Virus record (IMG/VR): IMGVR_UViG_3300029288_000143
Span: 14,068-78,067 of that record
From: a virus
Lineage: Duplodnaviria; Caudoviricetes
Direction: 5' to 3' (one strand)
DNA: 64,000 bases
The notes under the pieces were generated by a model, which saw nothing but the letters and a program-made list of their open reading frames with translations, did no database searches and was not told the DNA's origin. The translations under genes were made by a program, and so were the position numbers. Positions 5,564 to 50,118 of the stretch are shown here, one piece after another; the stretch's first letter is position 1; each line of letters begins with the position of its first letter.

Positions 5564-6322
5564 ATGCCCAAACCCGGCGCGGTTATTACAAGCATTCCCG
5601 GCTATGACGTCGGTTCCGGCGCCATTGTGTTGTCGTGGCGCAATAGTATTGCAAAACTATGGCTTCAAGATAAACAAAAAGTCGTAAGACTCAAGATTCC
5701 CGAGTCTATCGTCCCGAAAATCGAAGACTTTTCGCTCAGGGCGGCGCCGTCCATAATCGATCAATCCGTTGAACAGCGACCAGATCAAATCACAGGGCTA
5801 CCGAGTTTCTGGGGACCCCGAGACCCCAACTACCCATCGAGCCTCACGGATGTGTCATATAGACCACAACAATGGTGGAACCGCATGGTGGGGAGATGGG
5901 CCAAATTATTGAATAATTCCGCTGAGTTGCAGCGCCGAATCGCTTCTCTGAAAGGTGCAGAAATGCTAAATCCACAGTCAAAACCGCAGCGTATCATGCA
6001 CCTGGAACTCTGGACACCGGAGATGGAAAAGGACGCTGAGCTGGATAAAGAGACTTTGGTCAAGCTCACCCAGGAATGTTGGGATGAGTACGAGCACCTC
6101 CGAACCCGAAGTCACCCCAGATTCGGCCGAGGCTGGAATACCCGGATTGCGGAATTCCTGGTATTTTTCATCGCCGAGAATGAGCTTACCCGAGAAGAGC
6201 GCTGCTGCTTCCTAGAATTCATGAAGACCATCGGGCTGATTCAGGAAAATGATTGCATTGAGGTCAAGACGCTGATGTCGCAGTACCTGCCCGAGGCTAT
6301 GCGGATCGAAATTCAGAAGTAA
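5564..6322 (+). CDS. Hypothetical protein
   Basis: 252-aa ORF directly after the late-type motif. Confidence 0.7.
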   Translation: MPKPGAVITSIPGYDVGSGAIVLSWRNSIAKLWLQDKQKVVRLKIPESIVPKIEDFSLRAAPSIIDQSVEQRPDQITGLPSFWGPRDPNYPSSLTDVSYRPQQWWNRMVGRWAKLLNNSAELQRRIASLKGAEMLNPQSKPQRIMHLELWTPEMEKDAELDKETLVKLTQECWDEYEHLRTRSHPRFGRGWNTRIAEFLVFFIAENELTREERCCFLEFMKTIGLIQENDCIEVKTLMSQYLPEAMRIEIQK

Positions 6323-7740
6323 TGTTGTACCGCGGCCATCTATATCGTCTGGCTGGGTTAAGCGCCGCACCACGCAGCGCTGCGCCCAAGCTAGACCCCA
6401 AAGATAAGAAACTCACAGACGAGGATAAGAAACCTGTACTCGAAGCATGGCAGCCCCTGACGGACAAGCTCCTGGCACAGTATGAAATTAGACCCAACGG
6501 GCCCATAGTGGTTACGCAGGAAGCCGATGGGTACGATTTAATCTATAGTATTGACCAGGTGTTCAATTCTCCAGCGTTCATTCGATTCGACGTCTCGACG
6601 GCCAAGAAAGCCATTCAAGAAATCCAGGTCCGGCTCATGTGCTCGCCGCCGCATTCATTCGTCGCGGCGCAACCGGCTCATGTCAAAGACCTCATGATGG
6701 CATTGAAGACAATTTCAAAGTGCCAGAAGCGATCTGGTACATTCACGCCTCTCGACGAGAACGCCGCACAAAAGGAAGCCGAGGATTACGTCGAGAACAC
6801 CATTATGTTCCTGGTGAACGCAGGCGTGGAAATAGATTTCACCAAGCAAGATGATGTCGTCGCGGCACTGGAAAAAGCCGACCTCGATGAAGGCGAAAAA
6901 GCCGCCGCGCAAGCCGCTGTTAAACAATGGGACCGCGACGAATATACAGCTTTTGTGAAGTTACTCCAGCAGCAAGCCGGGGAAATCATCAGTGTCCGGG
7001 AATCCATTTACAAGAAAGTCGCTGAGCTGACTCGGCACGAAGCCTTCGCCGTTAGCCCAGAAACCGTCAGAATCGAAGGCTACCATAACGGCGCCGCGGT
7101 CATTGGATTAGACGTACCTTGGCCCACCGTTCTGGAACTCACGGGACGCGGCGAAAACCTCAAACTCGTGAACTTCGCCACGACTATCTGCAGTGTGATT
7201 GTGAATTCCGGGCCCAATGAAAACTTAGCCAAAGCGCTTCTCACTGCGCAAGTGGATTTGATTCTCGCGGGCGACCGTGCGGCCAACCCGAGTCTCAGCA
7301 AGCCCACGACCGATAAGCTCAATTGGACCGACGAGCAAGTCCAGGAGTTCTTGAAGACGGGCGTTGGCTTGTTGGCACACAGGGTGGATTTGAAACAGCC
7401 ACGCAACAACGACCTCACGAGCGTCGTCGTGGACAATAAAGTAATTGAATCGTATGAAAAGGGACCGGAGAATCAAATCGAAAGAAACGCAAAAGAATAT
7501 CGTGCTAGCGTTCAGCGGCAGCTAAATAGTAGAAAGCCGGCCTACTGGTTTACATATTATGAAAACGATAATAAAGTAGAAGTTCACGCTACTGGAAACG
7601 GTAAAATCGTCAAAACTTTCCAAAATATTCCGCATCGATTCGACTATGATCTGGATAAACTCCCCATGGAGACAGCGCAACGACCAGATCAAGAGAAGCC
7701 GCAAAAGAAAAGAAGCGTGAGAACTCGCGCCAGACAGTAA
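6322..7740 (+). CDS. Hypothetical virion/inner-head protein carrying the shared N-terminal YRGxxYRxA motif
   Basis: 472 aa; TAATG coupling to the upstream gene; begins MLYRGHLYRLAG. Confidence 0.75.
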   Translation: MLYRGHLYRLAGLSAAPRSAAPKLDPKDKKLTDEDKKPVLEAWQPLTDKLLAQYEIRPNGPIVVTQEADGYDLIYSIDQVFNSPAFIRFDVSTAKKAIQEIQVRLMCSPPHSFVAAQPAHVKDLMMALKTISKCQKRSGTFTPLDENAAQKEAEDYVENTIMFLVNAGVEIDFTKQDDVVAALEKADLDEGEKAAAQAAVKQWDRDEYTAFVKLLQQQAGEIISVRESIYKKVAELTRHEAFAVSPETVRIEGYHNGAAVIGLDVPWPTVLELTGRGENLKLVNFATTICSVIVNSGPNENLAKALLTAQVDLILAGDRAANPSLSKPTTDKLNWTDEQVQEFLKTGVGLLAHRVDLKQPRNNDLTSVVVDNKVIESYEKGPENQIERNAKEYRASVQRQLNSRKPAYWFTYYENDNKVEVHATGNGKIVKTFQNIPHRFDYDLDKLPMETAQRPDQEKPQKKRSVRTRARQ

Positions 7741-7749
7741 AACATCTGC

Positions 7750-8952
7750 ATGAAAATTACACCGGAAATCATGGCGGAGTGCAAGCATTACCCAGATGGT
7801 ACTATAGGTGTACGAAATCGTAGCGGCAGAATGATAAAGTATGAATGCTGCGCGTCCTGTGCTGGGTGCGGCGAACCATTTTTATCTGAACATTTCTACA
7901 AAAACGGACAGCGCGTTTTTAACACGTATTGCTCTGTTTCTTGTAGAAGTAAAAATATGGTTCTTTCCGACGAAACACACCACAAAATGGTGGTGTCGCA
8001 TCTCGGTAAACCTGTTTCACCAGAAACGCGTAGGAAGTTAAGCGCAGCGTCTCGTGGTAGACCAATGCCCCTGCACGTGTCGGCTGTATTGCACTCACCA
8101 GAGGCCAAACTAAAAGCCAGAGCAGGGCGAGACGCCCACGTGGCACTGCATGGTGGAAATTTAAAACCAGCACAGCATGCTGCTAAACACAACCACTACC
8201 GACACTATATAAATAAAGCGGCAAACCGCGGTTTGATTTTTGAACTGACTAAAGATGAATTCTTAGACATAACATCTAAGCCTTGTCATTACTGCGGTGT
8301 AGCATCCAGCATCACAGTTAAAAATCATGCTTGCTGCACCACAGATGGTTTTTATGTCTGCAATGGCGTAGATCGCGTGGATTCAAGCAAAGGATATACG
8401 CTGGATAACGTGGTTCCGTGCTGCACCCAGTGTAACATAGCAAAGTTAAATAAAAATATCGCTGAGTTTTTAATTTGGGTACTGAAAACGGATTTGTTTT
8501 TACGTAATAAACCCACTAGTTTAACTTATTTCGGAGACATCATTGAGGCACAGCAGAGCGTTATGCGCGTTGTATTTGGTGAGCATAAGCGTAGGCGTAA
8601 GCACGGCAGTAAAGATTATATAGTCAGCACGCTGAGCATAATTGATTTTGCACGCCTAATAAGAACGCAATGCTTCTACTGCGGTGGAGGGTTATCTAAC
8701 GCGCGTGCACGCACTTACGGGCGTAACAGAAAACGTCCGGCTGATGGTGTAGTGCTGGAATACAATGGTTTGGACAGAATAGACCCCGATGGTGGCTATA
8801 CCCTGGAAAATGTGGTTCCGTGTTGTGCAACGTGCAATAGAGCTAAATTAGATTACTCACAGGACGAATTCTATACCTGGGTAACACGCGTAGCCAACCA
8901 CATTAGAAATACGCCAGAACTGTTTGATTTGGTCTCGTCCCATCTTTGTTAG
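7750..8952 (+). CDS. Free-standing HNH homing endonuclease with two tandem His-Me domains
   Basis: CHYCG...NGVDRVDSSKGYTLDNVVPCCTQCNIAK and CFYCG...NGLDRIDPDGGYTLENVVPCCATCNRAK; N-terminal Cys cluster and NUMOD-like helix; AT-richer than flanks. Confidence 0.85.
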   Translation: MKITPEIMAECKHYPDGTIGVRNRSGRMIKYECCASCAGCGEPFLSEHFYKNGQRVFNTYCSVSCRSKNMVLSDETHHKMVVSHLGKPVSPETRRKLSAASRGRPMPLHVSAVLHSPEAKLKARAGRDAHVALHGGNLKPAQHAAKHNHYRHYINKAANRGLIFELTKDEFLDITSKPCHYCGVASSITVKNHACCTTDGFYVCNGVDRVDSSKGYTLDNVVPCCTQCNIAKLNKNIAEFLIWVLKTDLFLRNKPTSLTYFGDIIEAQQSVMRVVFGEHKRRRKHGSKDYIVSTLSIIDFARLIRTQCFYCGGGLSNARARTYGRNRKRPADGVVLEYNGLDRIDPDGGYTLENVVPCCATCNRAKLDYSQDEFYTWVTRVANHIRNTPELFDLVSSHLC

Positions 8953-8976
8953 TTTGCCGAACTTCAGGAGCCCAGA

Positions 8977-17536: not shown

Positions 17537-18280
17537 ATGACCAGATATTTAGTCTACCGAAATGCTGTTTATCGCATCGCTTCCATGCCGTTGCAAGTTT
17601 TGCAGTTGGGCCCTGGCCAGAAATTCGATCCTGATTTCAAGACTTCCTGCACGCCTCCTTGGCAGGTTAACCCCTTCAATTACAAGCCGCTGTGCAGCAG
17701 CGGTAATCAACAACCGCTCTGGACCTCATCATACGACTACGAGGCAAAAAGTACTGAATGGCTAAGGTACTGCGCTCGCGGCTATGAAGACGACATTGGG
17801 GAACAGGCCGTCATTTTTGAAGTGTCACCGTCTGCACGTGTGATGCATATTTTGAACGAAGACGACTTTGAAACAGCTTTAGGTCTATATCCTGGTGAGC
17901 CTTCCAACGACATGAAACGCATGGGAATGGGCCGACCTTTAGATTGGAACGCTGTCGCGCAGGAGTACGATGGATTTCATGTAGGGCGCGAAGCAATTTC
18001 TACTTCAGAACTTCGGGAGTGGAGCGTCGAATCGACCGTATGGTTTAACCCGAAAGTCTTGACGGTAAAGCAAATAGTTGACATCCAACATTACTGTGAC
18101 GCCGCTGGACACGGTCGTAGTTTGTCCCCACAAGAGCGTAAAGACATCAAGCAACAAAAAGAACAAACAGAAGAGTCTTTCGGGGAAAAACTTGACCAGT
18201 GGCTCGAGCACAGGACTGGGCCACAACCACAGCCGCCCCATGACCAGTACAGGTTCCGTTACGAAATACCCCGGCCATAG
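17537..18280 (+). CDS. Hypothetical protein with shared N-terminal motif; possible ADP-ribosyltransferase fold
   Basis: Begins MTRYLVYRNAVYRIA; KP..LWTSS..W...ARVMHI...LDW...YDGFHV...WSVES pattern. The ART assignment is inference only. Confidence 0.6.
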   Translation: MTRYLVYRNAVYRIASMPLQVLQLGPGQKFDPDFKTSCTPPWQVNPFNYKPLCSSGNQQPLWTSSYDYEAKSTEWLRYCARGYEDDIGEQAVIFEVSPSARVMHILNEDDFETALGLYPGEPSNDMKRMGMGRPLDWNAVAQEYDGFHVGREAISTSELREWSVESTVWFNPKVLTVKQIVDIQHYCDAAGHGRSLSPQERKDIKQQKEQTEESFGEKLDQWLEHRTGPQPQPPHDQYRFRYEIPRP

Positions 18281-18296: not shown

Positions 18297-19353
18297 ATGC
18301 CGACAAAACTGCAATACCGTGGTCATGTTTACCGGCAAGCCAACCCCTGAATGGTGGGGACAGGACCAAGATCATCACTACACGCAGCCCGCAGATCCCG
18401 AGACTGAAATCCCGGTGGCAGATCTGCTGCGGGAATTCGACGAGATGATCGAGATCGCGTGCCGAGACGGCACCTGGAATGTTGATCCATATCTCTTCGG
18501 CATGGCCAATGGCATGATTTTCATGCGGTCAATAGTCAGCGGCGAAGAACCTCAGTATTTGGAGGCGCCGGCCGAGTGGTCGGGCGAGTCCAGTGGGGTA
18601 GAGGCAGAATCGGATAAGCGTTCACTTGCGCGGGGTGAAACTACACGTTACGTTACCCGTGACTATCTTCGCCAATATGTAGAGTCTACCGGTGTCGATT
18701 TGGACGACATAAAGCGTCATTATGGCCTCGGACAACATTCGGCCAGTGCCCAGTACCGACGGGGTTTTGTCGACGGGCAGGATTTCGGGCATGCTATTTT
18801 AGACGACGCGGCCCAACTTGAGCATGGTACCACAGCACTACAACGTGATGTCGACCGATTAGGCTGGGACGGGGCCGTTGAGCACCAGCAAGATTTAGGC
18901 GACGCGGCCCAGCAACGTCTGGACCCCAATGCCATCAGCAAAACCATGTGGCAAATGGGCGTGCGGGATGCCAAACTGCTCGGCCCAGGGCTTATAACAG
19001 TCGAAGAGGCGAAAGCTAGGGCGGCCAGAAGTGTCGCCAGCACTAAACAAGAAATATTGGCAACCCTGACCTCCAAGTTTAATTTCGGCGAACCCAACGA
19101 ATTTGACACACAAATCAGCACCGAAGCGGCCTACGCGCAGGAGCAGGACGCCATGGTGGCGTGGACAGCAGTCCGGCAGTACATCGATTCCGTGCTGCGG
19201 CAGCTCCTTCCCGTCACCACGACCGAAACAGATTTCGGCATGGCCCAAACCATCCTTGGTCTCATTGAGGTGGCGTCACATGTCGGTCGTGTGCGTTGCC
19301 GATGCTCAGATCCTTGGCGACTGCATGTCGGCATCACGACGCTCGCCAAATAG
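18297..19353 (+). CDS. Protein apparently expressed through a +1 frameshift at CCC_TGA (17-aa motif leader plus 334 aa)
   Basis: ATG 18297 with AAGGA SD gives MPTKLQYRGHVYRQANP* (stop 18348-18350). The +1 frame continues EWWGQDQD... to 19353 and has no good start of its own. Confidence 0.6.
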
Positions 19354-39076: not shown

Positions 39077-39448
39077 ATGGATACTTTTGTCTTTCGCGAT
39101 GCTGTATATCGGCGTGTAATAGTTTCCCGTACGGCGGCTAGTGCCATGCAGGAGCTGCAGAGCGTTCCTCGAGATCTCACCGAGGAACAATTCGATGGCC
39201 TGTTGTGGCCGCTCGCAGAGAAGATGGTGCAGCAGTGTAGCACCAAAGATAAAGGGCCGACTACACGCGAGTGGTGCGTGTACTCTGGCGACAACCAGCA
39301 GGGCCTACAAAGCATGCATCTTGACCGGCAAGACGCCGTAGATCATGCTTTTATGTGGTTGCAACGCTATTTCTTGACTGGCCTTCGTGGTAACCCAAAA
39401 ATCAAGAATTTCGATACTTTCCTGCAAGAATACGTGAAAAATCACTAG
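39077..39448 (+). CDS. Hypothetical protein with shared N-terminal motif
   Basis: GGAGG SD; MDTFVFRDAVYRRVIVSRTAA. Confidence 0.7.
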   Translation: MDTFVFRDAVYRRVIVSRTAASAMQELQSVPRDLTEEQFDGLLWPLAEKMVQQCSTKDKGPTTREWCVYSGDNQQGLQSMHLDRQDAVDHAFMWLQRYFLTGLRGNPKIKNFDTFLQEYVKNH

Positions 39449-39474
39449 CTTCGATCTTTCCCGCCCCTTTCTGC

Positions 39475-41024: not shown

Positions 41025-41037
41025 CAAAACTTAATAG

Positions 41038-41055
41038 CACGTTATCTTTTAGTAG
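41038..41055 (+). promoter_or_regulatory. Putative phage late promoter
   Basis: CACGTTAtctttTAGTAG. Confidence 0.6.
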
Positions 41056-41075
41056 TTCTTACGAAAGGTATAATC

Positions 41076-41630
41076 ATGTCCGTACCTAAATTTATCCGCG
41101 TCGCCGGTCAATTATATCGTTTGGCTGAGCCACCGCCGCAGTTCACACAGGACAAAGACGAGCTTGGGAAGCTCGAGGCAGATCTCGAGATGGCAGAATC
41201 TATTGGCGCTACCGAAAACGCCAAGCAGATTAGGCAAAAAATTGAACAGCTAAAAACAGCTTTCGCACCCAGAGATAAATATTATGCTGACATGCCCGGC
41301 GCGAAGTACGTAATTGCACTTTCTCCCGAAGAAGAAGAGATTCTATTCCAGATCCATGAGGGACAGGGCGACGCCGTCTATGCAGTCGCGAGCCGCAGTC
41401 ATAGCGCTGGGTTAACTTGGGTCACTGAGGACGAACTCTCGACCGTAGTGTCTCGTCTTGCCTGGCTGCTCAGTGACGCGACCATCACAGCGGAGATGTC
41501 GGAACAAGAGCAAGAGACTGCCGCCTCGCTTCTCTATGAACTAGAAAACCTATCGTCCGGCAGCACTGGAATTGAGTATCCTCCTGGTGTCATCCGGGAA
41601 TTTGATTTGCAGACCCCACCCAGCGCTTAG
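41076..41630 (+). CDS. Putative internal head protein (shared motif)
   Basis: MSVPKFIRVAGQLYRLAE; acidic and helical. Confidence 0.7.
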   Translation: MSVPKFIRVAGQLYRLAEPPPQFTQDKDELGKLEADLEMAESIGATENAKQIRQKIEQLKTAFAPRDKYYADMPGAKYVIALSPEEEEILFQIHEGQGDAVYAVASRSHSAGLTWVTEDELSTVVSRLAWLLSDATITAEMSEQEQETAASLLYELENLSSGSTGIEYPPGVIREFDLQTPPSA

Positions 41631-41693
41631 TTTCATCTGTTTCCTGCTTTCTACCTTATATCTAGGTAGATTTGCGTCTACCGGAGAACCTCC

Positions 41694-43412
41694 ATGCCTG
41701 AAATTATTTATCGCGGCCAGCGCTATGTACTCCACACGGCAGCCGAAACCTATGCCCCGCCTGCCCCGCCGGCCAATTGGGAAACAAATAAGCAAGAATA
41801 TATCACCAAAGTCATAGCCGATTTGGAGGCTTTGGGCGAACGCGTTTATACTTTGGGTATTGAAAGCGACGTTATCGCGGAGCAACCCGGAGATGTCGAC
41901 GCAGAAGTAACGCAAACCAAAGTAAAACAAGTCCGGCACGAGCTTAAACTCCAAGAAGCCGCCGGTAATGCCGAAGCTGTGGCTGCTCTCAAGGCGCAAC
42001 TCGACGCACTGGGAATTAAGAAATCTACCACGGGTTTGGCATTGGATAACTTGGCCAAGGTAATTGACAATACAATCGCGGCAGTTGAACTCGGAGAGTA
42101 TCTAATCAAAAACCCCACGGTGCCTGCAAAACGTGCGGTAAAAATTCCTATTACTGAAGTCGTACCAGAGCTTACTCGTATCGTTGATCAGTGGGAAAAG
42201 TTTGCGCTATCGAGTCGGCCGGCGTCCGATGTGCCCGATCAGCAGCGCAAAAAAGAAGAAGTCCTGGGCTTCCCTAAATTCGTGAAGGTACAGCTTGACT
42301 TCATCAATAAACACATTGTAGAAGCTACTGAATTAGTCAACCGTGCTGCAGTGACCGAAGGCCAGGATCCCGAGGAAAGCGCACGTATCCAAGCTGCGCA
42401 AGCCGCACTTCCTAGTTTTATGTACCGGCTCAAGGTTGTGAATGAATCCATCGCCAAAGGCAAATATGTAATTTCCAACCGTGTCGACCTGCTGGCTGAG
42501 ATGGAAGATGCGCGGAAAGCCGCAGAAACTGCTGGCGACGCAGCACAGGCTGAAGAACTGCAGAAGCGTATCGATTGGGTGCAAGGTACTCAAACAACCG
42601 ATAAGGACCTGAAAGATCGATACATTAAAGACATTGTGAAAGAGTTGTTTACAGAGTTTAAAGCGCACTGGCTGGTGGCCAAGGCGCAAAAGGCTAAAGA
42701 AAAAGCCGAAGCTGACGCGAAGGCTAAGGCAGATAAGCCCGAAAAAGAAAAGAAACCGAAGGAACCCAAACCCGACAATCTCATGGAGGTAGTAAAAGAA
42801 CTCCTGGCTACGCTGGAGGATATCAAAAATAAACAGCCTATGTTCTTGCAAACCGCAAAAGCGCGCGAGGGTTTCGATAAACTCGTGCAGGACACCATCG
42901 CGGTTGGAAAGGCTGTAGACGCTGGCGCCGCTTCTGTGACGCTGTCGTCTGGGGAATACCCAATCAAAGAGGCCGTGAAGCTGGTGCAAGACGGTATGCG
43001 ACAGTACCGCAGCATGATGAAGCGAGAGTTTGAGCCCGGGGCCAGAGCGCAAGAGAAGCAAGTCGGTATGGGCAAGAGTCTGGAAGATCTAGATAAAAAG
43101 ATTGCGGAGATTGATCAGGCCATTTCTGCGGTTCGCAGCCAGCAGAGTCGTGCGTCTGCAGGTAGCCTGGAGTTGCTAGAACAAATCAAGCGAAAACCGG
43201 ATCGTGCAAGCAAACTGCCTTTGATGGCCCGGCGAGATAAAATAGAGCACGAAGTAGCAGAGCTTACTAAGCAAATCGACACCCTGCGCAAAGAGCGTAG
43301 TTCTGTGAGTCTAGCGCGTGACAATCTGCTTAAAAGCGTACGGCCAGGCCCACAGGCCACACCCGAAGTTACCAAACCAACGGGTCCCATTTACCAGACA
43401 CCGGAGTTCTAA
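41694..43412 (+). CDS. Putative internal head protein, coiled-coil rich (shared motif)
   Basis: MPEIIYRGQRYVLHTAAE; 572 aa, Lys/Glu/Ala-rich. Confidence 0.75.
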   Translation: MPEIIYRGQRYVLHTAAETYAPPAPPANWETNKQEYITKVIADLEALGERVYTLGIESDVIAEQPGDVDAEVTQTKVKQVRHELKLQEAAGNAEAVAALKAQLDALGIKKSTTGLALDNLAKVIDNTIAAVELGEYLIKNPTVPAKRAVKIPITEVVPELTRIVDQWEKFALSSRPASDVPDQQRKKEEVLGFPKFVKVQLDFINKHIVEATELVNRAAVTEGQDPEESARIQAAQAALPSFMYRLKVVNESIAKGKYVISNRVDLLAEMEDARKAAETAGDAAQAEELQKRIDWVQGTQTTDKDLKDRYIKDIVKELFTEFKAHWLVAKAQKAKEKAEADAKAKADKPEKEKKPKEPKPDNLMEVVKELLATLEDIKNKQPMFLQTAKAREGFDKLVQDTIAVGKAVDAGAASVTLSSGEYPIKEAVKLVQDGMRQYRSMMKREFEPGARAQEKQVGMGKSLEDLDKKIAEIDQAISAVRSQQSRASAGSLELLEQIKRKPDRASKLPLMARRDKIEHEVAELTKQIDTLRKERSSVSLARDNLLKSVRPGPQATPEVTKPTGPIYQTPEF

Positions 43413-43415
43413 ACT

Positions 43416-44126
43416 ATGGCCAACGCAGTTAAATTCAACGGTGCGCTTTATGTAATTGCAGGCAAACCTGCGGCCGGAACTCCACGTAACACCACTTGGA
43501 CGAAAAAACAGTTCAAGCACTACACATCACCAGTTAAAATGCCGGGTGTGCGCACCGACGTCATCCAAGGAGACGAAGCTGCTGTACAAACAGAAATTAA
43601 TCAGCTTAGGCGGGACATCGCAAAAGCTAAAGCTAGTTATGACAGCTTACTAGATCAGCGCAATCAGCAGTACGATAAACGAACTATTTCTCTCGAGGCG
43701 ACGCGCTCGCCGGAGCGTAATCGGCTGATCCGGGAATCAGAGCAAAAGATACTCGAACTAGATGCAAAACTAGACCGAATGGAAAAAGGCATCGAGCGCC
43801 TGATTGAAACACTAAACGAAAAACTAAATGCTCAGGTTTCCGAGACACCAAGCCCAGCAGATCCAGGAGGTCTCGTGGTCGAATATGACCCCATCAAGGT
43901 GCGCAAGCAGCAAGAGCTGCAGCGTGATTTGGCACAACTGCAGTCACACAAAGAAAAGCTATTAGCTGTGCAGCAAAAGTTCCTGCGGGATAAGTCTCAG
44001 CCGATGAGCGAAACTGCGGATAAACTCATCAAAAAAGATCTGCTCGACACCGACGACATGATCGCACAAAAGCAGCACATGCTCAGGGCTCTGTCGGCGC
44101 CTGCAGACCCAATGCTCAAGGATTAA
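43416..44126 (+). CDS. Putative internal head protein, coiled-coil (shared motif)
   Basis: MANAVKFNGALYVIAG. Confidence 0.7.
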   Translation: MANAVKFNGALYVIAGKPAAGTPRNTTWTKKQFKHYTSPVKMPGVRTDVIQGDEAAVQTEINQLRRDIAKAKASYDSLLDQRNQQYDKRTISLEATRSPERNRLIRESEQKILELDAKLDRMEKGIERLIETLNEKLNAQVSETPSPADPGGLVVEYDPIKVRKQQELQRDLAQLQSHKEKLLAVQQKFLRDKSQPMSETADKLIKKDLLDTDDMIAQKQHMLRALSAPADPMLKD

Positions 44127-44128
44127 TC

Positions 44129-44866
44129 ATGACGCCTAAATATATTCGTGTAGCTGGTAAACTATATCGTGCCTGCCCCTGTACTGAAGTTCCTGCTGCG
44201 GAGCATGCAGATGTAGTGCGCGAAGAACTCGAGATGCAGGGCTTTTCCGCGGTGCCATGCCAGGAACCCAAGAAAGTGTGTGTAGAGACTCCGCCAGCCC
44301 AGCCACAGATTTCGGCTCCACAACGCATTGAAACTACACAACGCTCAGCGCCGCAGTTCATTCGAGTACAAGGGCAAGTTTATAAAAAGGCGGCGGCAAA
44401 TCTTCCTGCTGTTGCTGCTGGAACGCTCAAAGCGCTGAATCGCGTCAGAATGCAAATTACTGCAATTCTGGGCGAAGCCGATCGCGGGGACGAAGACCGC
44501 GCGTCGGACACCGTCTGTATTTCCAATGTTCCAGGTGAGTTTCAGGTGCTGTCGGCCGATGCGCTGGGTGAGCGCGCACGTGAGGCGCTGGAACTACTGT
44601 ACAATTCTATCGCGCTGTGGGAGCGCAGCGCTACCGTCGCGTTGGCGGAGAATGAGATCATGCAGCACGCGTACGTGCTGCTCAATGACGTGCACGGCGC
44701 AGTGTCTGAGGCCGTTGAATCCGGCATTAATGCGCAGCCTGGATTTTTCTGTGTAGAGCGCGAAAAGTTCTTCGGTCTGGTATCGGATATCTCTGCGTGC
44801 ATGCAAGCCTTCACGAAGCTAGAGCGGATGTTGACCCAGAAATACAGCGTAGCCTCCGTCTCTTAG
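44129..44866 (+). CDS. Putative internal head protein with two copies of the shared motif
   Basis: MTPKYIRVAGKLYRA and internal PQFIRVQGQVYKKAA. Confidence 0.7.
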   Translation: MTPKYIRVAGKLYRACPCTEVPAAEHADVVREELEMQGFSAVPCQEPKKVCVETPPAQPQISAPQRIETTQRSAPQFIRVQGQVYKKAAANLPAVAAGTLKALNRVRMQITAILGEADRGDEDRASDTVCISNVPGEFQVLSADALGERAREALELLYNSIALWERSATVALAENEIMQHAYVLLNDVHGAVSEAVESGINAQPGFFCVEREKFFGLVSDISACMQAFTKLERMLTQKYSVASVS

Positions 44867-44867
44867 C

Positions 44868-44895
44868 TTGCATTCCTGCCAGTTTCTGCTATAGT
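44868..44895 (+). promoter_or_regulatory. sigma70-type promoter, leaderless transcript
   Basis: TTGCAT-16-TATAGT-6-ATG(44902). Confidence 0.55.
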
Positions 44896-44901
44896 GTTGA
44901 C

Positions 44902-45486
44902 ATGTCACAGCGCCTCCAATTCCGTGGGCACAACTACCGCCTGTACACTCCGAAAAGCCAACGCCGTGAATTTCGCATGGCGGTTGCGGGTCTATGGCGC
45001 GACGTCACGACAGTAATTCGGTATCTCGCAGAAAAAGGAATTGATCCAGTAGTTGTCGGCGGCCTCGCCGTGCAACACCACGGCGTAGAGCGTCTGACCG
45101 AAGATATCGATATCTTGATCTCCAGAGCTGCATACACGAAGCTCGTTGAGGAAGGCAAGATTAAGTTCGGGCAGCTGAAAATCATCCCCGGCACGGAAAT
45201 CGATGTGCTGACCGAGGGAAAGGACAACAACCCCGATCCTGAATTCATTCGAGCCGGAGATTCTAATTTCCCGACGTTTGCCGGTTTGATCTACCTGAAG
45301 CTGAAAGCGAACCGACTTAAAGACCGAGGCGATGTCGCGGAGCTACTTAAAGCCCACGAGTTCAATATCGAGGAACAGCAGGAAATCCTAACGTTCCTGC
45401 CAGAAGAGCTAAAAATTAGATTTTTAGCCATTTGGGACGAAGCCGGGCAAGAGCACGACAAACGCAAGCAAATGGTGGAAGAATAA
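44902..45486 (+). CDS. Nucleotidyltransferase (Pol-beta/MNT superfamily, DUF6036/AbiEii-like) with shared N-terminal motif
   Basis: VVVGGLAVQHHG..RLTEDIDI, LIYLKL..NRLKDRGDV; starts MSQRLQFRGHNYRLY. Confidence 0.8.
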   Translation: MSQRLQFRGHNYRLYTPKSQRREFRMAVAGLWRDVTTVIRYLAEKGIDPVVVGGLAVQHHGVERLTEDIDILISRAAYTKLVEEGKIKFGQLKIIPGTEIDVLTEGKDNNPDPEFIRAGDSNFPTFAGLIYLKLKANRLKDRGDVAELLKAHEFNIEEQQEILTFLPEELKIRFLAIWDEAGQEHDKRKQMVEE

Positions 45487-46145
45487 TGCAACGTGTGTTT
45501 TCAACGCTGAACGATCTCATCGCGCAAGGCGTTATTACCGATTATGCTCTTGGTGGCTCCGTTGCGTTCATGTTTTACTGCCAGCCGTTCCTGACCAACG
45601 ACACCGATTTCTTTGTACAAATGCCGGGAAGCGGACTGCTAGTCTCGCTCTCGCCAATCTACGCTTACGCGGCAGAACATAATTTTCCTCTGGACCATGA
45701 GCACATCGTTGTCGATGACGAGCCGGTGCAAATCATTCCAGCGCCCTCACCACTCTACGACGAAGCAATCGCTACAGCGCAGCAGCGGACAATCGAAGGA
45801 CAGAATGTAAAGGTCATGCTGCCGGAATATCTCGTCTGCACGGCACTGAATGCCGGCCGAATGAAAGATTTCGCAAAAATCGAAAAACTGCTCGAGGAAG
45901 CAGAAGTCGATCTGAGTAAACTAAAGGAACTCATTACCCGGTTTCAGCTATCTGCGCAGTGGAAGCGCTACCTTGTCGCCATTGGAGTTACTGATCCAGC
46001 TTTTCTGCATTTGGCGGAAACAAAAGCAACCTGGCGCCGTGCACAAGCCGATAAACGGATGGAAGACAAACTACAAGAAATAAAAAAGCTGCGCACCAGA
46101 GTCAGCGCAATCCGCTATAGAAACGCACTGTACAGACCTGTTTAA
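45486..46145 (+). CDS. Second nucleotidyltransferase of the same family
   Basis: YALGGSVAFMFY..PFLTNDTDFF, PEYLV..ALNAGRMKDFAKI; TAATG-coupled to the previous gene. Confidence 0.8.
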   Translation: MQRVFSTLNDLIAQGVITDYALGGSVAFMFYCQPFLTNDTDFFVQMPGSGLLVSLSPIYAYAAEHNFPLDHEHIVVDDEPVQIIPAPSPLYDEAIATAQQRTIEGQNVKVMLPEYLVCTALNAGRMKDFAKIEKLLEEAEVDLSKLKELITRFQLSAQWKRYLVAIGVTDPAFLHLAETKATWRRAQADKRMEDKLQEIKKLRTRVSAIRYRNALYRPV

Positions 46146-46228
46146 TTTTTGTCTTGTGAAATTCTACCTTCACGTCCGCTAAACTTGATATTACTGCCCA
46201 CAAATAAACGAGGCGTAGGCGAAAATTT

Positions 46229-46972
46229 GTGCGTTTATTGTGCGGAGGCACGAAGCAGCCGCAGTACTGCTGTAAAACGGCAGCACGCCGCCAGTGCGCG
46301 GTGCGGAGAACACCGGTGCTTACCAGCGATAAAACTGTAGATGGACGTTTGATTACTAGTTTGTCCCCTTGTAGTGAACGCAGAGTTTCTGTCAAATGCG
46401 ACACGTGTGGCGTGATCAACACCACTAGTTATGCCAACTACAACCGGGCGCAAAAGACGACGCACAATGGATCCGGGCGAACAACGTGTAGAAAATGTGC
46501 AGTAACAAAATCGGCGCTAGCACGCAAAGGCAAACCACGCGCACCTAAACCAAAACTGCCGCCAGAACAATTAGGGGCAAACCACAAAAGTTGGCGTGGC
46601 GGCAGGTACATCGACGCAAACAATTATGTAATGGTACACCAGCCAGACAGAAGTAAAGCCAGAACAACCGGCTGGGCGCACTATCGTAAAGAACATATCG
46701 TCGTTATGGAACAGCACATAGGCCGACGCCTGTTGCCCAATGAAACTGTACACCATATAGACGGAAACAAACAAAATAATGTGCTGTCCAATCTGTATTT
46801 AGTACACTCGCACGCAGAACACCGCAACGCGCACACGTCCCTGCAGCAAATAGGTTATGCGCTCATTAGAACCGGTATGCTTACGTTTGACCTACAAAAT
46901 GGGCAGTACATCGTGGGCGAAGCGCTTCAGCACCTGTTAGACCTTGCTAAAACAACTGAAGGGAACACCTGA
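46229..46972 (+). CDS. HNH homing endonuclease (HNH_3 type) with N-terminal Zn motifs
   Basis: WRGGRYID.NNYVMVH...EHIVVMEQHIGRRLLPNETVHHIDGNKQNNVLSNL; start codon uncertain. Confidence 0.85.
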   Translation: MRLLCGGTKQPQYCCKTAARRQCAVRRTPVLTSDKTVDGRLITSLSPCSERRVSVKCDTCGVINTTSYANYNRAQKTTHNGSGRTTCRKCAVTKSALARKGKPRAPKPKLPPEQLGANHKSWRGGRYIDANNYVMVHQPDRSKARTTGWAHYRKEHIVVMEQHIGRRLLPNETVHHIDGNKQNNVLSNLYLVHSHAEHRNAHTSLQQIGYALIRTGMLTFDLQNGQYIVGEALQHLLDLAKTTEGNT

Positions 46973-47575
46973 AGCGCAGACAGTATCGAAAATAAATTCG
47001 TCGAACACTGGGGAGACTATTGGTCTTAATTGTTCGACCAGACGCACCAGTGCTTGTCTTATCTCCCAATGTGCTGCTCTTGCGGTTCGCTGCGCTATGA
47101 TGTGGCGCCACGCGCGGAAGTTTGCCGTAACTACGATTTGGTTTTCCATACCAATAGGTAGAAATTGACGTGCGTCTTCCTTCGTTACACCCAAGGCACG
47201 AAGCTCTCTGTACGCGCCTAAAGCTTGTGTCATTAGCTCTCTGGCACGCGGACTATTTTCAAGGCGAGGTGGGAGTGCGAACTGCGCTGCTTGCTCGTCA
47301 ACATACCGCGTCGATTCTTGCGAATAAGCCACGCCTACGCGGTGTCTTACAAGCTCGTGTGTCATACCCCGGCTCACACCGCCGAACAACACGGTAATGC
47401 TTCCGTGCTCTAGCACAGACTCATGGCCACGCTTGATAAGCATAGCGATGAATTTCCGCGCCGTGTAGATTGTAACGGGTTCCTTGTACGATTGGTAGCA
47501 AACTCTTCCGGCGCGCTCTACGATTTGCATTTGGCTTTCAATTTCGGGCGTTGACGTGAGAATTTCTACGCGCAT
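46937..47575 (-). CDS. thyX: Flavin-dependent thymidylate synthase
   Basis: AGRVCYQS, RGHESVLEH, SRGMTHELVRHR, YSQESTRYV, EDARQFLP, AHWEIR. Confidence 0.95.
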   Translation of the reverse strand: MRVEILTSTPEIESQMQIVERAGRVCYQSYKEPVTIYTARKFIAMLIKRGHESVLEHGSITVLFGGVSRGMTHELVRHRVGVAYSQESTRYVDEQAAQFALPPRLENSPRARELMTQALGAYRELRALGVTKEDARQFLPIGMENQIVVTANFRAWRHIIAQRTARAAHWEIRQALVRLVEQLRPIVSPVFDEFIFDTVCASGVPFSCFSKV

Positions 47576-47720
47576 AGTTTTCCTTTTGTTTAGCGGCGTC
47601 CCTTCATTTTAGACACATAGCGTTACAGACATAGCGCCTTTGAAACAAGCAACAGCCTTAATAGATTACGAGTAGATCATGATTTTAATGTTTCCTTCTT
47701 GCGGTCTTGCGGTATCCCCT

Positions 47721-47749
47721 TTTGTATCATAAACTATAGTAGGTGTCAA
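47721..47749 (-). promoter_or_regulatory. sigma70-type promoter for thyX
   Basis: Minus strand TTGACA-17-TACAAA. Confidence 0.55.
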
Positions 47750-47873
47750 GAACAAAAACAGTACGAGGAACGCGCGGTGTTCAGCACGGCACAAATAAAA
47801 ATTGTGTCTGTGGAGTCTATAAACACCAGAACCGTCAAAACGCGCAAAACCGTTAAACTTCTTAGGAGGTACC

Positions 47874-48542
47874 ATGTACTCAGCACAAGCTTCTCGCTTC
47901 ATAGGTTTTGATACATCGACGTACTGCTCACCCCAGTATGCCAGAATTCTCTGGGATGCCGGGTACAGGCTGGCGATTCGGTATATTCGGCGGGATAAAC
48001 ACGTCAACGCCGTGCCAGACCTCAATGGCCTGGTTTCGCTGTCGCTTCAGGAGCGTGACGAACTCCTGAGCATTGGGTTCAAGATTACATGCGTGCAGTT
48101 CGCCAAACTCTCGCTCGTGCCATCAACCGCCGAAGGCACTGCGGCAGCCGAAGCTGGAGTTTACAACGCCAAAGCTTTGGGATTCAAGGCCGGCGACACT
48201 ATTTGGTACGATTTTGAGTGGTCTACCTCGCAAAATGCTTCTGCAGTAATGAGTTACATCGACGCCATTGGTAAATACACCGTGGCGAATGGCTTCAAAA
48301 TGGGGTCCTACGTCGGTCCCAATTGTAGTCTTTCTGGTGATCAGTGGTATGCGCGGCCCTACTGCACGGCGTACTGGAAATCCGGCGCGATTGTGCCTTG
48401 GGTTACGCAACGTGCGTTCCAGCTGATCCAGGGAGTTCCCATCACTGTCGGCAAGACGAGCACACGGGCCGGCATCAACATTGATCAGGATATCGTGTGT
48501 TATGACAACAAAAATGAAATTTTCTCTTGTCTCGCGGCCTAA
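47874..48542 (+). CDS. DUF1906 / GH25-like glycoside hydrolase (putative endolysin)
   Basis: GFDTS, GYRLAIRY, AEAGV..AKALGFKAGDTIWYDFE, GSYVG, IDQD; AGGAGG SD. Confidence 0.8.
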   Translation: MYSAQASRFIGFDTSTYCSPQYARILWDAGYRLAIRYIRRDKHVNAVPDLNGLVSLSLQERDELLSIGFKITCVQFAKLSLVPSTAEGTAAAEAGVYNAKALGFKAGDTIWYDFEWSTSQNASAVMSYIDAIGKYTVANGFKMGSYVGPNCSLSGDQWYARPYCTAYWKSGAIVPWVTQRAFQLIQGVPITVGKTSTRAGINIDQDIVCYDNKNEIFSCLAA

Positions 48543-48545
48543 CGA

Positions 48546-49136
48546 CTATAGATCCATCACGACGGGCTTCCCGACGACGTTGCCGAACCGATCCATCTGC
48601 GTGACGTTCAGCGCTTTGGTCCTGGCATAGTGCTGCTTCCCATTGCCGTGACTGAAAACATGGAGTCGCGGAGCGCGCTGCCGCACGATTTCCGCCAGGC
48701 CGCCGAATTCCGGCGGGCAGTGAGTAATCAAAATATCGAGGCCCTCGGGAATGTGGCACCAGCGATGGATCATGTAGTCGTCATGATCGCAAAATGCACC
48801 CGCCAGGCTAAACTCTCGACTGAATGACCACGGAGACCACGGCGTACCGAAAATTTTGAAGCCTTCAACTTCCACGGTTTCGTCGACCAAAACCTTAGCG
48901 TTGTAAAGGCGCGAAATTGCCTCGGTCTCGTTGGCATCGCACCATTCGTCTCGGTCACCGAATACGACGAATTTGTACTTGTGCGGTAGGCGCCCGAGCA
49001 ACGCGTTGAAACGGTCGACGTCGTAGCGTGTACCGAACGTGGAGCTGAAGTCCCCGGTGCAAATCAGTACATCACCATCGGGAACCGACAGCAGGTAGTC
49101 TTCGTGGTGGGTGCATCCAATAAAAACGAAGCGCAT
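48546..49136 (-). CDS. Metallophosphoesterase (MPPED-like) with degenerate metal ligands
   Basis: FIGCTH, PDGDVLICTGDFS, VFGDRDE, IFGTPWSP, LITHCPP, VFSHG; ATG 49136 with AGGAGG SD. Confidence 0.75.
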   Translation of the reverse strand: MRFVFIGCTHHEDYLLSVPDGDVLICTGDFSSTFGTRYDVDRFNALLGRLPHKYKFVVFGDRDEWCDANETEAISRLYNAKVLVDETVEVEGFKIFGTPWSPWSFSREFSLAGAFCDHDDYMIHRWCHIPEGLDILITHCPPEFGGLAEIVRQRAPRLHVFSHGNGKQHYARTKALNVTQMDRFGNVVGKPVVMDL

Positions 49137-49191
49137 GGGGACCTCCTGACTACAGTGTAGCAGAAGTGGACAACGCGTCAAGATGCAACTT

Positions 49192-49209
49192 CACCTTAGT
49201 TTATAGACA
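49192..49209 (+). promoter_or_regulatory. Putative late promoter (partial match)
   Basis: CACCTTAgtttaTAGACA. Confidence 0.4.
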
Positions 49210-49218
49210 GGAGACAGC

Positions 49219-50118
49219 ATGACTACACCAAATAAAATCCGAGTTCGCGGTGACGTGTACGAACTCGTGAAAAACGTAGCGCCGCTGGCGCAAATGGACC
49301 TCGCCGACGAGATGTCCCAAGATATGCGGTTGGCCCAAAATGAGTTCGTGACGACGGTAGAGAACGTCATCGATGCCGTGGATGAAATCGATCCGCGCGG
49401 CCTTGCATCTCCCATCGCCGGAATGGCCGCGCCAATCGGCAAGATATTCACCAAAGCGCAAGGAATCCTCAAACTATTTCAACACGACAAAATCAGCGTG
49501 GAACTCTACAAATTGGAGTACGGTCGTTGGTACTTGGTACACGAGCTGGTGCGTGTGGCCTATCACTTTGCGCGCCAAGATTACTACAAGCGAGACAACA
49601 AACTAGATATTGACACCGTGGTCAGCGCACTTGACTACGACAAAACACTAAAAGAACTGCGGCAAGACCACGAGCGCTATTACGCGGCAGCCGCATCTAA
49701 AATACTGCTGCGCTTCATTAAGGCCGGCAGTGAGGATGACACCCCTGTCGTACAGGATTCGAAAACAAGGCGTGAGCTAGACCTCAGTGCCGTGACGATA
49801 CAGCGAATTAAGGACACCATTAAGCACGTGCTGCAGGCTGCACTTGACCTCGGAACCGCCACGGCCGAAACCCTGGACAAATACGACAGCGCTGCTCGGC
49901 ATCTCGCGGCAGCTACAAATCTGGCTAAAGAAATCGCCAAGGCGCCGCAGATGTTGATGAAACCTGAACCCCTGACTCCGCCAGAGCACAAAGAGCGCAT
50001 CGATACAGACGCTACAATAAGTAAATCCGTTGAGGACGAGCCCACCGCCATTGATCCGCGCGTAAAGCACGGCACCTACCTTCACTACGCCGGAAAAACC
50101 TACCGTCCACTCACGTAG
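49219..50118 (+). CDS. Putative internal head protein with the motif at both termini
   Basis: MTTPNKIRVRGDVYELV...TYLHYAGKTYRPLT*; AGGAG SD. Confidence 0.7.
   Translation: MTTPNKIRVRGDVYELVKNVAPLAQMDLADEMSQDMRLAQNEFVTTVENVIDAVDEIDPRGLASPIAGMAAPIGKIFTKAQGILKLFQHDKISVELYKLEYGRWYLVHELVRVAYHFARQDYYKRDNKLDIDTVVSALDYDKTLKELRQDHERYYAAAASKILLRFIKAGSEDDTPVVQDSKTRRELDLSAVTIQRIKDTIKHVLQAALDLGTATAETLDKYDSAARHLAAATNLAKEIAKAPQMLMKPEPLTPPEHKERIDTDATISKSVEDEPTAIDPRVKHGTYLHYAGKTYRPLT

What the first reader, a model, noticed from the sequence alone, without database searches (positions are those of the whole stretch)
6322..50118. A shared ~12-aa N-terminal tag on ten unrelated proteins: candidate capsid-packaging/injection signal
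Seen in sequence: the motif [ILF]-x-[YFV]-x-[GND]-x-x-Y-x-x-(A) begins ten ORFs: 6322 (MLYRGHLYRLA), 17537 (YLVYRNAVYRIA), 18297 (KLQYRGHVYRQA), 39077 (TFVFRDAVYRRV), 41076 (KFIRVAGQLYRLA), 41694 (EIIYRGQRYVLHTA), 43416 (AVKFNGALYVIA), 44129 (KYIRVAGKLYRA), 44902 (RLQFRGHNYRLY) and 49219 (KIRVRGDVYELV). Two extra copies occur inside 44129 (QFIRVQGQVYKKAA) and at the very C-terminus of 49219 (YLHYAGKTYRPLT). The rest of these proteins share nothing, and the DNA encoding the motif is not a repeat, so selection acts on the peptide. Several carriers sit directly after the late-type promoter or near head genes. Established: T4 internal proteins carry an N-terminal capsid-targeting sequence that the prohead protease removes. 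Inference: this beta-hairpin-like peptide addresses cargo (coiled-coil proteins, a nucleotidyltransferase, a possible ART) into the head for co-injection, with cleavage after the R/K-x-A that often follows.
Basis: partly seen in the sequence, partly recalled or inferred. Interest (0 to 1): 0.88.

Follow-up and report, generated by a model that had tools for sequence, protein, structure and literature searches.

The report
Portable hairpin tag on jumbo-phage proteins
A group of uncultivated giant phages puts the same 11-14-residue peptide on the ends of many otherwise unrelated proteins, which looks like an undescribed address or docking label, most plausibly for loading proteins into the phage head, but nothing yet shows what reads it.

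Summary
All 16 lie on the + strand of this one 78-kb phage contig. The best score in the other 3.0 million six-frame positions of the genome is 17.9 bits. Fifteen of the 16 copies sit within 6 residues of a start or 4 of a stop. Synonymous codons vary freely, so selection acts on the peptide.

The tag is kept in orthologues in at least six other uncultivated phage lineages. In one nucleotidyltransferase family, 8 of 19 members carry it and 11 do not. Some helical proteins carry two to five copies, including two in the head-assembly operon. Carriers include two nucleotidyltransferases (one folds like the toxin MenT1), a NUDIX protein, a possible ADP-ribosyltransferase and a sigma-70 factor.

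Capsid loading fits the head-operon carriers and the effector-like cargo. No partner was identified. No consistent protease site follows the tag, and some copies are C-terminal or internal, unlike the T4 signal. I rate capsid loading at about 0.4. One carrier, at 18297, is a 17-codon ORF out of frame with its body. The scan has noted comparable lineage-specific tags in other jumbo phages.

The parts
6322..6354 (+). Tag copy MLYRGHLYRLA, at residue 1 of the 472-aa ORF 6322-7740
   Evidence: 27.7 bits, leave-one-out 20.8. A relative (L013) has the same gene order: a homologue of the 252-aa protein, then a tagged protein.
17549..17581 (+). Tag copy LVYRNAVYRIA, 4 residues after the ATG of the 247-aa ORF 17537-18280
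   Evidence: 25.2 bits. The orthologue in L015 (49% identity) keeps a diverged tag, VKYKNAVYRAV.
18297..18350 (+). 17-codon ORF made of little but the tag (MPTKLQYRGHVYRQANP), with an AAGGA ribosome-binding site, ending AAC CCC TGA. The long ORF to 19353 is in the +1 frame.
   Evidence: 29.2 bits, the best copy. No homologue of the body was found, so frameshift versus assembly error could not be tested.
39086..39118 (+). Tag copy FVFRDAVYRRV at the N-terminus of the 123-aa ORF 39077-39448
   Evidence: 20.2 bits, leave-one-out 9.5. Preceded by the promoter-like motif at 39046.
41094..41126 (+). Tag copy (PKF)IRVAGQLYRLA at the N-terminus of the 184-aa ORF 41076-41630
   Evidence: 27.3 bits. Promoter-like motif at 41038. 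The stretch after the tag recurs in the three-tag protein P0022.
41703..41735 (+). Tag copy IIYRGQRYVLH at the N-terminus of the 572-aa coiled-coil ORF 41694-43412
   Evidence: 24.4 bits. Only coiled-coil Pfam hits. An orthologue lies in L015.
43428..43460 (+). Tag copy VKFNGALYVIA at the N-terminus of the 236-aa ORF 43416-44126
   Evidence: 21.8 bits, leave-one-out 11.4. The L015 orthologue starts MLPNTINFRGAIYTVA.
44144..44392 (+). Tag-helix-tag module: N-terminal copy at 44144-44176 and internal copy at 44360-44392 of the 245-aa ORF 44129-44866
   Evidence: 23.5 and 25.3 bits. Residues 1-88 are a paralogue of the 90-aa two-tag protein at C6:10046 (38% identity, E 7e-12).
44914..44946 (+). 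Tag copy LQFRGHNYRLY at the N-terminus of nucleotidyltransferase 44902-45486
   Evidence: 26.5 bits. DUF2204 hit. Nearest solved fold is the toxin MenT1. In the model the tag is a hairpin at residues 4-13 with pLDDT 47-67, not packed on the body. Eight of 19 family members carry the tag.
46110..46142 (+). Tag copy IRYRNALYRPV at the very C-terminus of the second nucleotidyltransferase (45483-46145).
   Evidence: 23.4 bits, not a seed. DUF2204 hit.
49237..49269 (+). Tag copy IRVRGDVYELV at the N-terminus of the 299-aa ORF 49219-50118
   Evidence: 25.3 bits.
50080..50112 (+). Tag copy LHYAGKTYRPL, 1 residue before the stop of the same ORF

Best explanation
The peptide is a portable docking label of about 14 residues. 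Its consensus is P-K-x-[ILV]-[RQK]-[YVF]-x-G-x-[LV]-Y-[RK]-x-[AV]. It probably folds as an amphipathic two-stranded beta-hairpin.

A clade of uncultivated jumbo phages joins it, through proline-, alanine- and acid-rich linkers, to the ends of accessory proteins that share nothing else. One tag marks a client protein. Helical proteins with two to five tags act as cross-linkers.

The most likely reader is a component of the assembling prohead: the scaffold or core, the inner face of the capsid, or the portal. On this view the multi-tag helical proteins encoded between the portal, the protease and the major head protein build or bridge an internal core. Single-tag enzymes and coiled-coil proteins would then be loaded into the head and delivered with the DNA.

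Shown: the tag, its enrichment, its terminal placement, selection on the peptide, its modular gain and loss, the multi-copy carriers, and where the carrier genes lie.

Inferred: the hairpin fold (low-confidence model), the existence of one common partner, that the partner is in the prohead, and delivery into the host cell.
For: - The tag is real and confined to the phage contig.
- Selection acts on the peptide.
- Orthologues in L003/L004, L010, L013, L015, L016 and G003 keep the tag while its sequence drifts.
- In the nucleotidyltransferase family, 8 of 19 members carry it and 11 have other N-termini.
- C6 is a phage contig with a large terminase, portal, prohead protease and major head protein.
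- In that head region, the gene directly after the portal is tagged in three lineages.
- The 247-aa helical protein after the protease ends in two degenerate tags. A 90-aa protein between the protease and the major head protein is tag-helix-tag.
- Other multi-copy carriers: P0022 with three tags, P0023 with five, and a 193-aa G003 protein with three.
- Carriers are accessory or effector-type, never core replication or shell proteins: a MenT1-like nucleotidyltransferase, a second nucleotidyltransferase, a NUDIX protein, a weak PARP hit in a relative's post-portal gene, and a sigma-70 factor.
- A promoter-like motif occurs 7 times on C6, always in + strand intergenic DNA. It precedes tagged genes (39077, 41076, and the operon that contains 6322) and also the head-region gene C6:5551.
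- Precedent: the T4 capsid targeting sequence sends diverse internal proteins into the scaffolding core (PMC3012670).
Against: - No partner was identified and no virion data exist, because the phage is uncultivated.
- No conserved protease site follows the tag.
- Tags also occur at C-termini and internally, and in G003 about half are internal. A free end is therefore not required.
- In G003 all 11 tags lie in an 8-kb cluster beside the DNA ligase, 17 kb from the major head protein. In the window the largest group (39077-50118) lies among nucleotide-metabolism and lysis-type genes, not head genes.
- The promoter-like motif also precedes an exonuclease-like gene at 20772, so it is not clearly a 'late' promoter.
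- A sigma factor with five tags would fit a cytoplasmic transcription hub equally well.
- Cultured distant relatives with the same head-gene lineage have no such tag.
- The hairpin has low model confidence, and a single-sequence model drew helices instead.
Confidence: 0.4

Rival explanations
1. The tag docks on a hub that is not part of the virion. Candidates are a phage or host protein in the infected cell, for example RNA polymerase or a replication or transcription centre. The tagged enzymes and regulators would be gathered there.
For: - A sigma-70 factor carries five tags.
- The carriers include nucleic-acid enzymes: nucleotidyltransferases and a NUDIX protein.
- The main tag clusters lie beside the DNA ligase in both C6 and G003.
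- The promoter-like motif also drives an exonuclease-like gene.
- From my own knowledge: T4 uses short terminal peptides to dock its late sigma factor gp55, gp33 and the DNA polymerase on the sliding clamp.
Against: - Typical clients of a replication hub are untagged: the ligase, the exonuclease and the HNH nucleases.
- Four carriers lie inside the head-assembly operon, one of them directly after the portal in three lineages.
- The tag resembles no known clamp-binding or polymerase-binding motif, and nothing was found in Pfam or the PDB.
Confidence: 0.27
2. The tags bind one another. Hairpins pair into small sheets, so multi-tag proteins form a network or condensate and single-tag proteins partition into it. 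No separate receptor is needed. The network could be inside the prohead or in the cytoplasm.
For: - Many carriers have two to five tags spaced by linkers or helices.
- Tandem tags lie 8-15 residues apart in P0023, in the G003 193-aa protein and in C6:8164.
- No receptor candidate conserved across all tag-bearing loci was found.
Against: No evidence of self-pairing. The single-sequence model of the tag-helix-tag protein did not pair its two tags, but it was low confidence. Isolated 11-residue hairpins rarely associate stably.
Confidence: 0.15
3. The tag is a basic, aromatic hairpin that binds nucleic acid, either phage DNA or RNA, and tethers the carriers to the genome.
For: The tag carries a net positive charge (R/K at four or five positions) and an invariant Tyr. 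Several carriers act on nucleic acids or nucleotides.
Against: One face of the predicted hairpin is hydrophobic (I/L, Y/V, Y), which suits protein docking better. No similarity to known nucleic-acid-binding motifs was found. The flanks are acidic.
Confidence: 0.1
4. The tag is a recognition signal for a protease or unfoldase (a degron) or for a chaperone, and sets the lifetime of a set of phage proteins.
For: Known degrons sit at protein ends, as most tags do. The phage has a prohead protease, and one tag-bearing relative encodes a ClpP-type protease.
Against: Internal and multiple copies are hard to fit with a degron, as are the strict Gly and Tyr and the tags on scaffold-like proteins.
Confidence: 0.05
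5. Chance similarity, or a leftover of common descent with no function.
For: A few copies are weak in leave-one-out scoring (8.4-11.4 bits).
Against: - Sixteen copies on C6 against none in the background at 18 bits or more.
- The copies are placed at protein ends.
- Synonymous codons vary freely.
- The tag is kept in orthologues that are only 40-50% identical overall.
Confidence: 0.01

Closest known systems
Capsid targeting sequence (CTS) of phage T4 internal proteins IPI, IPII, IPIII (PMC3012670; the consensus and the cleavage by gp21 are from my own knowledge)
   Same: A short conserved peptide on otherwise unrelated, fast-evolving accessory proteins of a large phage that has a T4-type prohead protease. 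It is mostly N-terminal, and the carriers include effector-type enzymes.
   Different: There is no sequence similarity and no conserved Glu cleavage site after the tag. The tag also occurs at C-termini and internally, and in two to five copies on helical proteins. Packaging has not been shown.
Encapsulin cargo-loading peptides (my own knowledge)
   Same: A short peptide at either end of a cargo enzyme, joined by a flexible Pro/Ala-rich linker. In encapsulins it docks on the inside of an HK97-fold shell, and this phage also has an HK97-lineage major head protein.
   Different: The sequence and the predicted shape differ: a hairpin here, an extended GSL-type peptide there. The system is a DNA-packaging phage, and binding to the shell is untested.
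Polyvalent proteins and MuF-fused toxins of phages (mentioned in PMC7824862; details from my own knowledge)
   Same: The same kinds of domain are proposed to travel with the DNA: ADP-ribosyltransferase, nucleotide-degrading and nucleotidyltransferase domains.
   Different: In those systems the effectors are fused into one long protein, or to a folded portal-associated MuF domain. Here each is a separate protein with a short tag, and no MuF domain was found.
Pfam DUF4278, the N-terminal part of the cyanobacterial glutamine-synthetase inactivating factor IF17 (PMC6212724)
   Same: From memory, members begin with a similar L-x-Y-R-G-x-x-Y stretch. This is a lead only.
   Different: The DUF4278 model gives no hit on any tag of C6 at E up to 10. 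That family is cellular and tied to nitrogen control.
Lineage-specific shared N-terminal tags noted by this scan in other jumbo phages (e1-370441, e1-5344466, e1-5340821, e1-5336059)
   Same: Many unrelated proteins of an uncultivated jumbo phage share one short terminal peptide. Each lineage has its own version, and the function is untested.
   Different: The sequence is different. This one also occurs at C-termini, internally and in several copies per protein.

Membership tests
T4-type capsid targeting sequence | One short peptide shared by otherwise unrelated phage proteins | tested here: met
   16 copies on C6; the carriers share only the tag apart from two paralogue pairs.
T4-type capsid targeting sequence | Strictly N-terminal position | tested here: not met
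   Four C-terminal and one internal copy on C6. In the pooled scan of C6 and related loci (52 copies, 42 distinct), 7 were C-terminal and 10 internal.
T4-type capsid targeting sequence | The tag ends in the prohead-protease cleavage motif (x-x-Glu) and is removed | tested here: not met
   No conserved residue follows the tag, and E/D is at the next two positions in about 30% of copies. Actual cleavage cannot be tested here.
T4-type capsid targeting sequence | Carriers are found inside the head | not testable with these tools
   The phage is uncultivated, and its cultured distant relatives lack the tag.
T4-type capsid targeting sequence | The phage encodes a prohead protease and a scaffold or core | tested here: met
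   phrog_18299 head maturation protease at C6:7343-8155, followed by helical scaffold-like proteins.
Encapsulin cargo-loading peptide | Terminal peptide on a flexible linker | tested here: met
   The flanks are rich in P, A, E and Q. The modelled tag is detached from the body.
Encapsulin cargo-loading peptide | Binds the inner face of an HK97-fold shell protein | not testable with these tools
   Only single-chain structure prediction was available.
Pfam DUF4278 (PF14105) | Match to the family model above its cut-off | tested here: not met
   The only hit in the genome is C4:38001-38126 (16 bits, below the cut-off). There is none on C6, and none for ten N-terminal fragments at E up to 10.
Pfam CBM_5_12 hairpin | Match to the family model above its cut-off | tested here: not met
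   One fragment (41694) scores 17.2 bits against a cut-off of 26.2; the others give nothing.
MenT/AbiEii-type nucleotidyltransferases (for carrier 44902) | Pol-beta-type nucleotidyltransferase fold close to MenT toxins | tested here: met
   Model pLDDT 91.8. Best solved matches are MenT1 8an4/8an5, E 4e-5, TM 0.5. Pfam DUF2204 scores 21.3 bits against a cut-off of 20.3. Activity is untested.

The most novel reading that the evidence does not exclude
A clade of jumbo phages, binned here with a Patescibacteria genome, uses one beta-hairpin address tag in two ways. Multi-tag helical proteins build an internal head core. The same tag loads that core with separate effector proteins for injection with the DNA: toxin-type nucleotidyltransferases, a NUDIX enzyme, an ADP-ribosyltransferase-like protein and, in one relative, a sigma factor. 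This would be a modular cargo-loading system, like that of encapsulins, operating inside a DNA phage.
Probability: 0.3. Interest if true: 0.8.

Novelty: new variant of a known kind. Interest (0 to 1): 0.6.

Why it matters
A portable tag that sends proteins to one place is the key to a whole set of unknown genes. Here about one gene in six on this contig would be assigned to a common pathway at once.

If the destination is the capsid, three things follow. The tag would list the proteins these phages inject, which are their first-strike tools against the host. It would show a loading principle in a DNA phage close to that of encapsulins. It would also offer a 14-residue handle for packaging foreign proteins.

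If the destination is another hub, the tag marks an undescribed interaction network that includes a sigma factor and toxin-type enzymes.

Either way the question becomes directly testable with a peptide, a few recombinant head proteins and a GFP fusion.

Tried and rejected
- Pfam and PHROGs on all carriers and on 30-residue N-terminal fragments found no family for the tag.
- A profile of the tag against PDB sequences found nothing.
- The DUF4278 model does not hit the tags.
- Cultured distant relatives (PaBG, phiRSL1, NCTB, Erwinia Y3, Rctr197k) have no tag. Clustering of PaBG N-termini shows no tag of its own, so no virion proteome could be brought to bear.
- tblastn of the nucleotidyltransferase, and blastn of two stretches, against 50,697 phage records gave no match.
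- The portal profile found no relative in species-representative genomes, and only three loci in metagenome contigs: two short fragments (L010, L012) and the 177.6-kb contig already found as L004.
- The word-based homologue search with the 90-aa two-tag protein and with the 18319 body found only themselves.
- The single-sequence model of the tag-helix-tag protein was uninformative: pLDDT 60, tags drawn as helices.
- The ESM Atlas gave no usable hit for carrier 6322.
- No cleavage motif was found after the tag.
- The N-terminus of the major head protein (MSIYRNKIV...) looked tag-like by eye but scores under 5 bits.
- CRISPR spacers on C4 do not match C6.
- PHROGs on the 27082-39043 block gave no structural names, so the promoter-like motif cannot be called 'late'.

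Full report
**Where the window lies.** The window is bases 14068-78067 of contig C6 (78,067 bp) of a 23-contig, 1.59-Mb genome bin. The bin's RpoB is 86% identical to that of a Patescibacteria genome.

C6 itself is phage DNA, and nearly all its genes are on the + strand. Upstream of the window it encodes:
- a large terminase (phrog_17415, E 8e-94);
- a portal (phrog_16240, E 1e-74);
- a prohead protease (phrog_18299, E 9e-47);
- two paralogous virion proteins (phrog_16710);
- a major head protein (phrog_2522) that runs into the window's first bases.

The terminase and portal are 27-29% identical to those of cultured jumbo phages such as PaBG, phiRSL1 and the Erwinia Y3 group. The nearest relatives are uncultivated contigs of 132, 177 and 260 kb, which CheckV rates 49-74% complete. 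Contig C4 of the same bin shares 17 ORFs with the 260-kb relative. The phage is therefore at least 186 kb, and C6 is only part of it. The link to a Patescibacteria host rests on binning alone.

**Checking the observation.** I built an 11-column log-odds matrix from them and scanned every frame of the whole genome.
- All 16 hits of 20 bits or more lie on the + strand of C6.
- The best of 3.02 million positions elsewhere scores 17.9 bits.
- Four of the 16 were not used to build the matrix: the N-terminus of the gene directly after the portal (C6:5117), both ends of a 90-aa protein (C6:10061 and 10271), and the C-terminus of the second nucleotidyltransferase (window 46110).
- Eleven copies start 0-6 residues after an ATG, four end 0-4 residues before the stop, and one is internal. 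The binomial P for that placement is 7e-14.
- The codons for the conserved Arg, Gly and Tyr vary. Identical residues share a codon in only 34% of pairs, so selection is on the peptide.
- Outside the tag the carriers are unrelated, with two exceptions. The first 88 residues of 44129 are a paralogue of the 90-aa two-tag protein, and the two nucleotidyltransferases are distant relatives.
- One correction is needed. The ORF at 18297 has 17 codons, has a good ribosome-binding site and ends AAC CCC TGA. Its presumed body is in the +1 frame. No homologue of the body exists in the databases searched. A programmed +1 shift, an assembly error and a free-standing mini-ORF therefore all remain open.

**Conservation elsewhere.** The tag is a property of a phage lineage, not of this contig.
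- In the relative with 57% portal identity, and in another with 69%, the gene after the portal again starts with the tag: MLQYRGHRYRVA and MRQVIYRGCVYRLA.
- A 37-kb contig (L015) is syntenic with window 41694-45486. It also holds the orthologue of 17537. Each orthologue keeps a diverged tag.
- In the nucleotidyltransferase family of 44902, 8 of 19 members carry the tag, down to 39% identity. The other 11 have unrelated N-termini. The tag is therefore gained and lost as a module.
- The contigs around three of the tagged family members (L013, L015, L016) carry further terminal tags on other genes.
- In the 260-kb relative G003, all 11 copies scoring 14.7 bits or more lie in one 8-kb cluster beside the DNA ligase, and about half are internal. 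One further tag-like N-terminus lies near 58.7 kb.
- Pooling 42 distinct copies extends the motif to P-[KR]-x-[ILV]-[RQK]-[YVF]-x-G-x-[LVT]-Y-[RVEK]-x-[AV]. Tyr is invariant and Gly is present in 87%. The flanks are rich in Pro, Ala, Glu and Gln.
- Exact-pattern scans of IMG/VR found few further contigs, so the lineage is rare in that collection.
- Five cultured distant relatives lack the tag.

**Shape.** The alternation of hydrophobic and basic residues around a Gly/Asn/Asp suggests an amphipathic hairpin.
- A model of the tagged nucleotidyltransferase, built with its 19-sequence alignment, is confident for the body (pLDDT 91.8).
- It draws residues 4-13 as strand-turn-strand, with Arg-Gly at the turn. 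That part has pLDDT 47-67 and makes no confident contact with the body.
- A single-sequence model of the two-tag protein was uninformative.
- The hairpin is therefore an inference with weak support.

**Carriers.**

In the window:
- coiled-coil or helical proteins of unknown function (6322, 41076, 41694, 43416, 44129, 49219);
- small orphan proteins (17537, 39077);
- two nucleotidyltransferases of the DUF2204 type. The first has the toxin MenT1 as its nearest solved fold (E 4e-5, TM 0.5).

In relatives:
- a 740-aa protein with a NUDIX domain (59 bits);
- a 695-aa gene after the portal with a weak PARP-type hit (E 0.005, below the cut-off);
- a sigma-70 factor (region 2 at 56 bits) carrying five tags.

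Upstream of the window, in the head region:
- the 129-aa protein after the portal;
- a 247-aa Ala/Lys/Arg-rich helical protein after the protease, which ends in two degenerate tags with Phe in place of Tyr;
- the 90-aa tag-helix-tag protein;
- a 90-aa helical protein with a weak copy of the tag.

No core replication enzyme or shell protein is tagged.

**What it most likely does.** The features point to a short docking motif read by a common partner, or by other copies of itself. These features are a short conserved peptide on flexible linkers, mostly at protein ends, modular, and sometimes in several copies per protein.

Capsid loading is the best single reading, for three reasons.
- Multi-tag helical proteins sit exactly where scaffold or core proteins are encoded.
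- The gene after the portal is tagged in three lineages.
- The single-tag carriers are the kinds of enzyme that phages are known or proposed to deliver with their DNA (T4 internal proteins, PMC3012670; polyvalent proteins, PMC7824862).

A promoter-like motif, CAC[GC]TTA[AT]-N2-7-TA[GA], occurs seven times on C6, always in + strand intergenic DNA. The other 3.0 Mb holds 13 copies. It precedes tagged genes and a head-region gene, but also an exonuclease-like gene.

Several points count against capsid loading.
- No protease site follows the tag.
- Some copies are internal or C-terminal.
- The main clusters lie beside the ligase rather than the head genes.
- The sigma-factor carrier would suit a cytoplasmic hub equally well.

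I put capsid or core loading at 0.4, another hub at about 0.27, self-association at 0.15, nucleic-acid binding at 0.1, a degron at 0.05 and chance at 0.01.

**Comparison with what is known.** The system works most like the T4 capsid targeting sequence and like encapsulin cargo-loading peptides, but it is a member of neither. It shares no sequence with them, has no cleavage motif and is not restricted to one terminus. It matches no Pfam, PHROG or PDB entry. My recollection of a similar start in DUF4278 proteins did not survive the model test. I found no paper describing the tag. This scan has already recorded comparable lineage-specific tags in other jumbo phages. The general phenomenon is therefore not unique to this genome, and the function remains untested in every case.

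**Verdict.** I class it as a new variant of a known kind of system, a shared address tag on phage proteins, with unusual multi-copy carriers and two-ended placement. Interest is 0.6.

Noticed in passing
window 18297-19353: The best-scoring tag copy is a 17-codon ORF with an AAGGA ribosome-binding site, ending AAC CCC TGA. The 342-344-aa ORF that follows is in the +1 frame and has no convincing start of its own. This could be a programmed +1 frameshift, an assembly indel or a free mini-ORF.
   Followed up: partly
contig C4 of the same genome, about 13-55 kb and 82.3-91.2 kb: C4 shares 17 ORFs (30-52% identity) with the 260-kb phage contig G003, so it is probably part of the same jumbo phage as C6. 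It also carries an array of 18 copies of a 36-nt repeat, next to ORFs that I read by eye as a type I-C cas operon (no family search was run on them). That would be a phage-borne CRISPR-Cas system. No spacer matches C6.
   Followed up: partly
contig C4, 76014-76820: Two adjacent genes start with weaker tag copies, (L)PILYKNCVYRLA at 17.5 bits and MPILIYRNAIYIP. These are the only credible tags outside C6.
   Followed up: partly
window 5516, 20736, 25664, 26998, 39046, 41038; also C6:5504: The promoter-like motif CAC[GC]TTA[AT]-N2-7-TA[GA] occurs 7 times on C6, always in + strand intergenic DNA just upstream of a gene. The other 3.0 Mb holds 13 copies.
   Followed up: partly
L002 (C6) 2832-5108: The portal is 758 aa. 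Cultured jumbo-phage portals align only to about residue 493. After that come a Gly-rich linker and a C-terminal domain of about 170 residues that is conserved in the 57%-identical relative. This is a candidate interior docking domain.
   Followed up: no
L133 361-1986 (protein P0023, a 2-kb Logan contig): A sigma-70 family factor (region 2 at 56 bits) with two tags at its N-terminus, two more after region 4 and one at its C-terminus.
   Followed up: partly
window 528-4277: A 1249-aa protein directly after the major head protein starts with a DUF5661 domain. In relative L013 a 273-aa DUF5661 protein ends in a tag copy.
   Followed up: no
window 55808-56504 and C4:94767: Three genes start with the same MKIRTGFVSNSSSSSF-like peptide (two adjacent in the window, one on C4). 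This is a second, different shared N-terminus.
   Followed up: no
whole genome bin: The bin's RpoB is 86% identical to that of a Patescibacteria genome, yet the bin holds at least 186 kb of jumbo-phage DNA. Either it is a chimeric bin or this is a hint of a jumbo phage of a CPR bacterium.
   Followed up: partly
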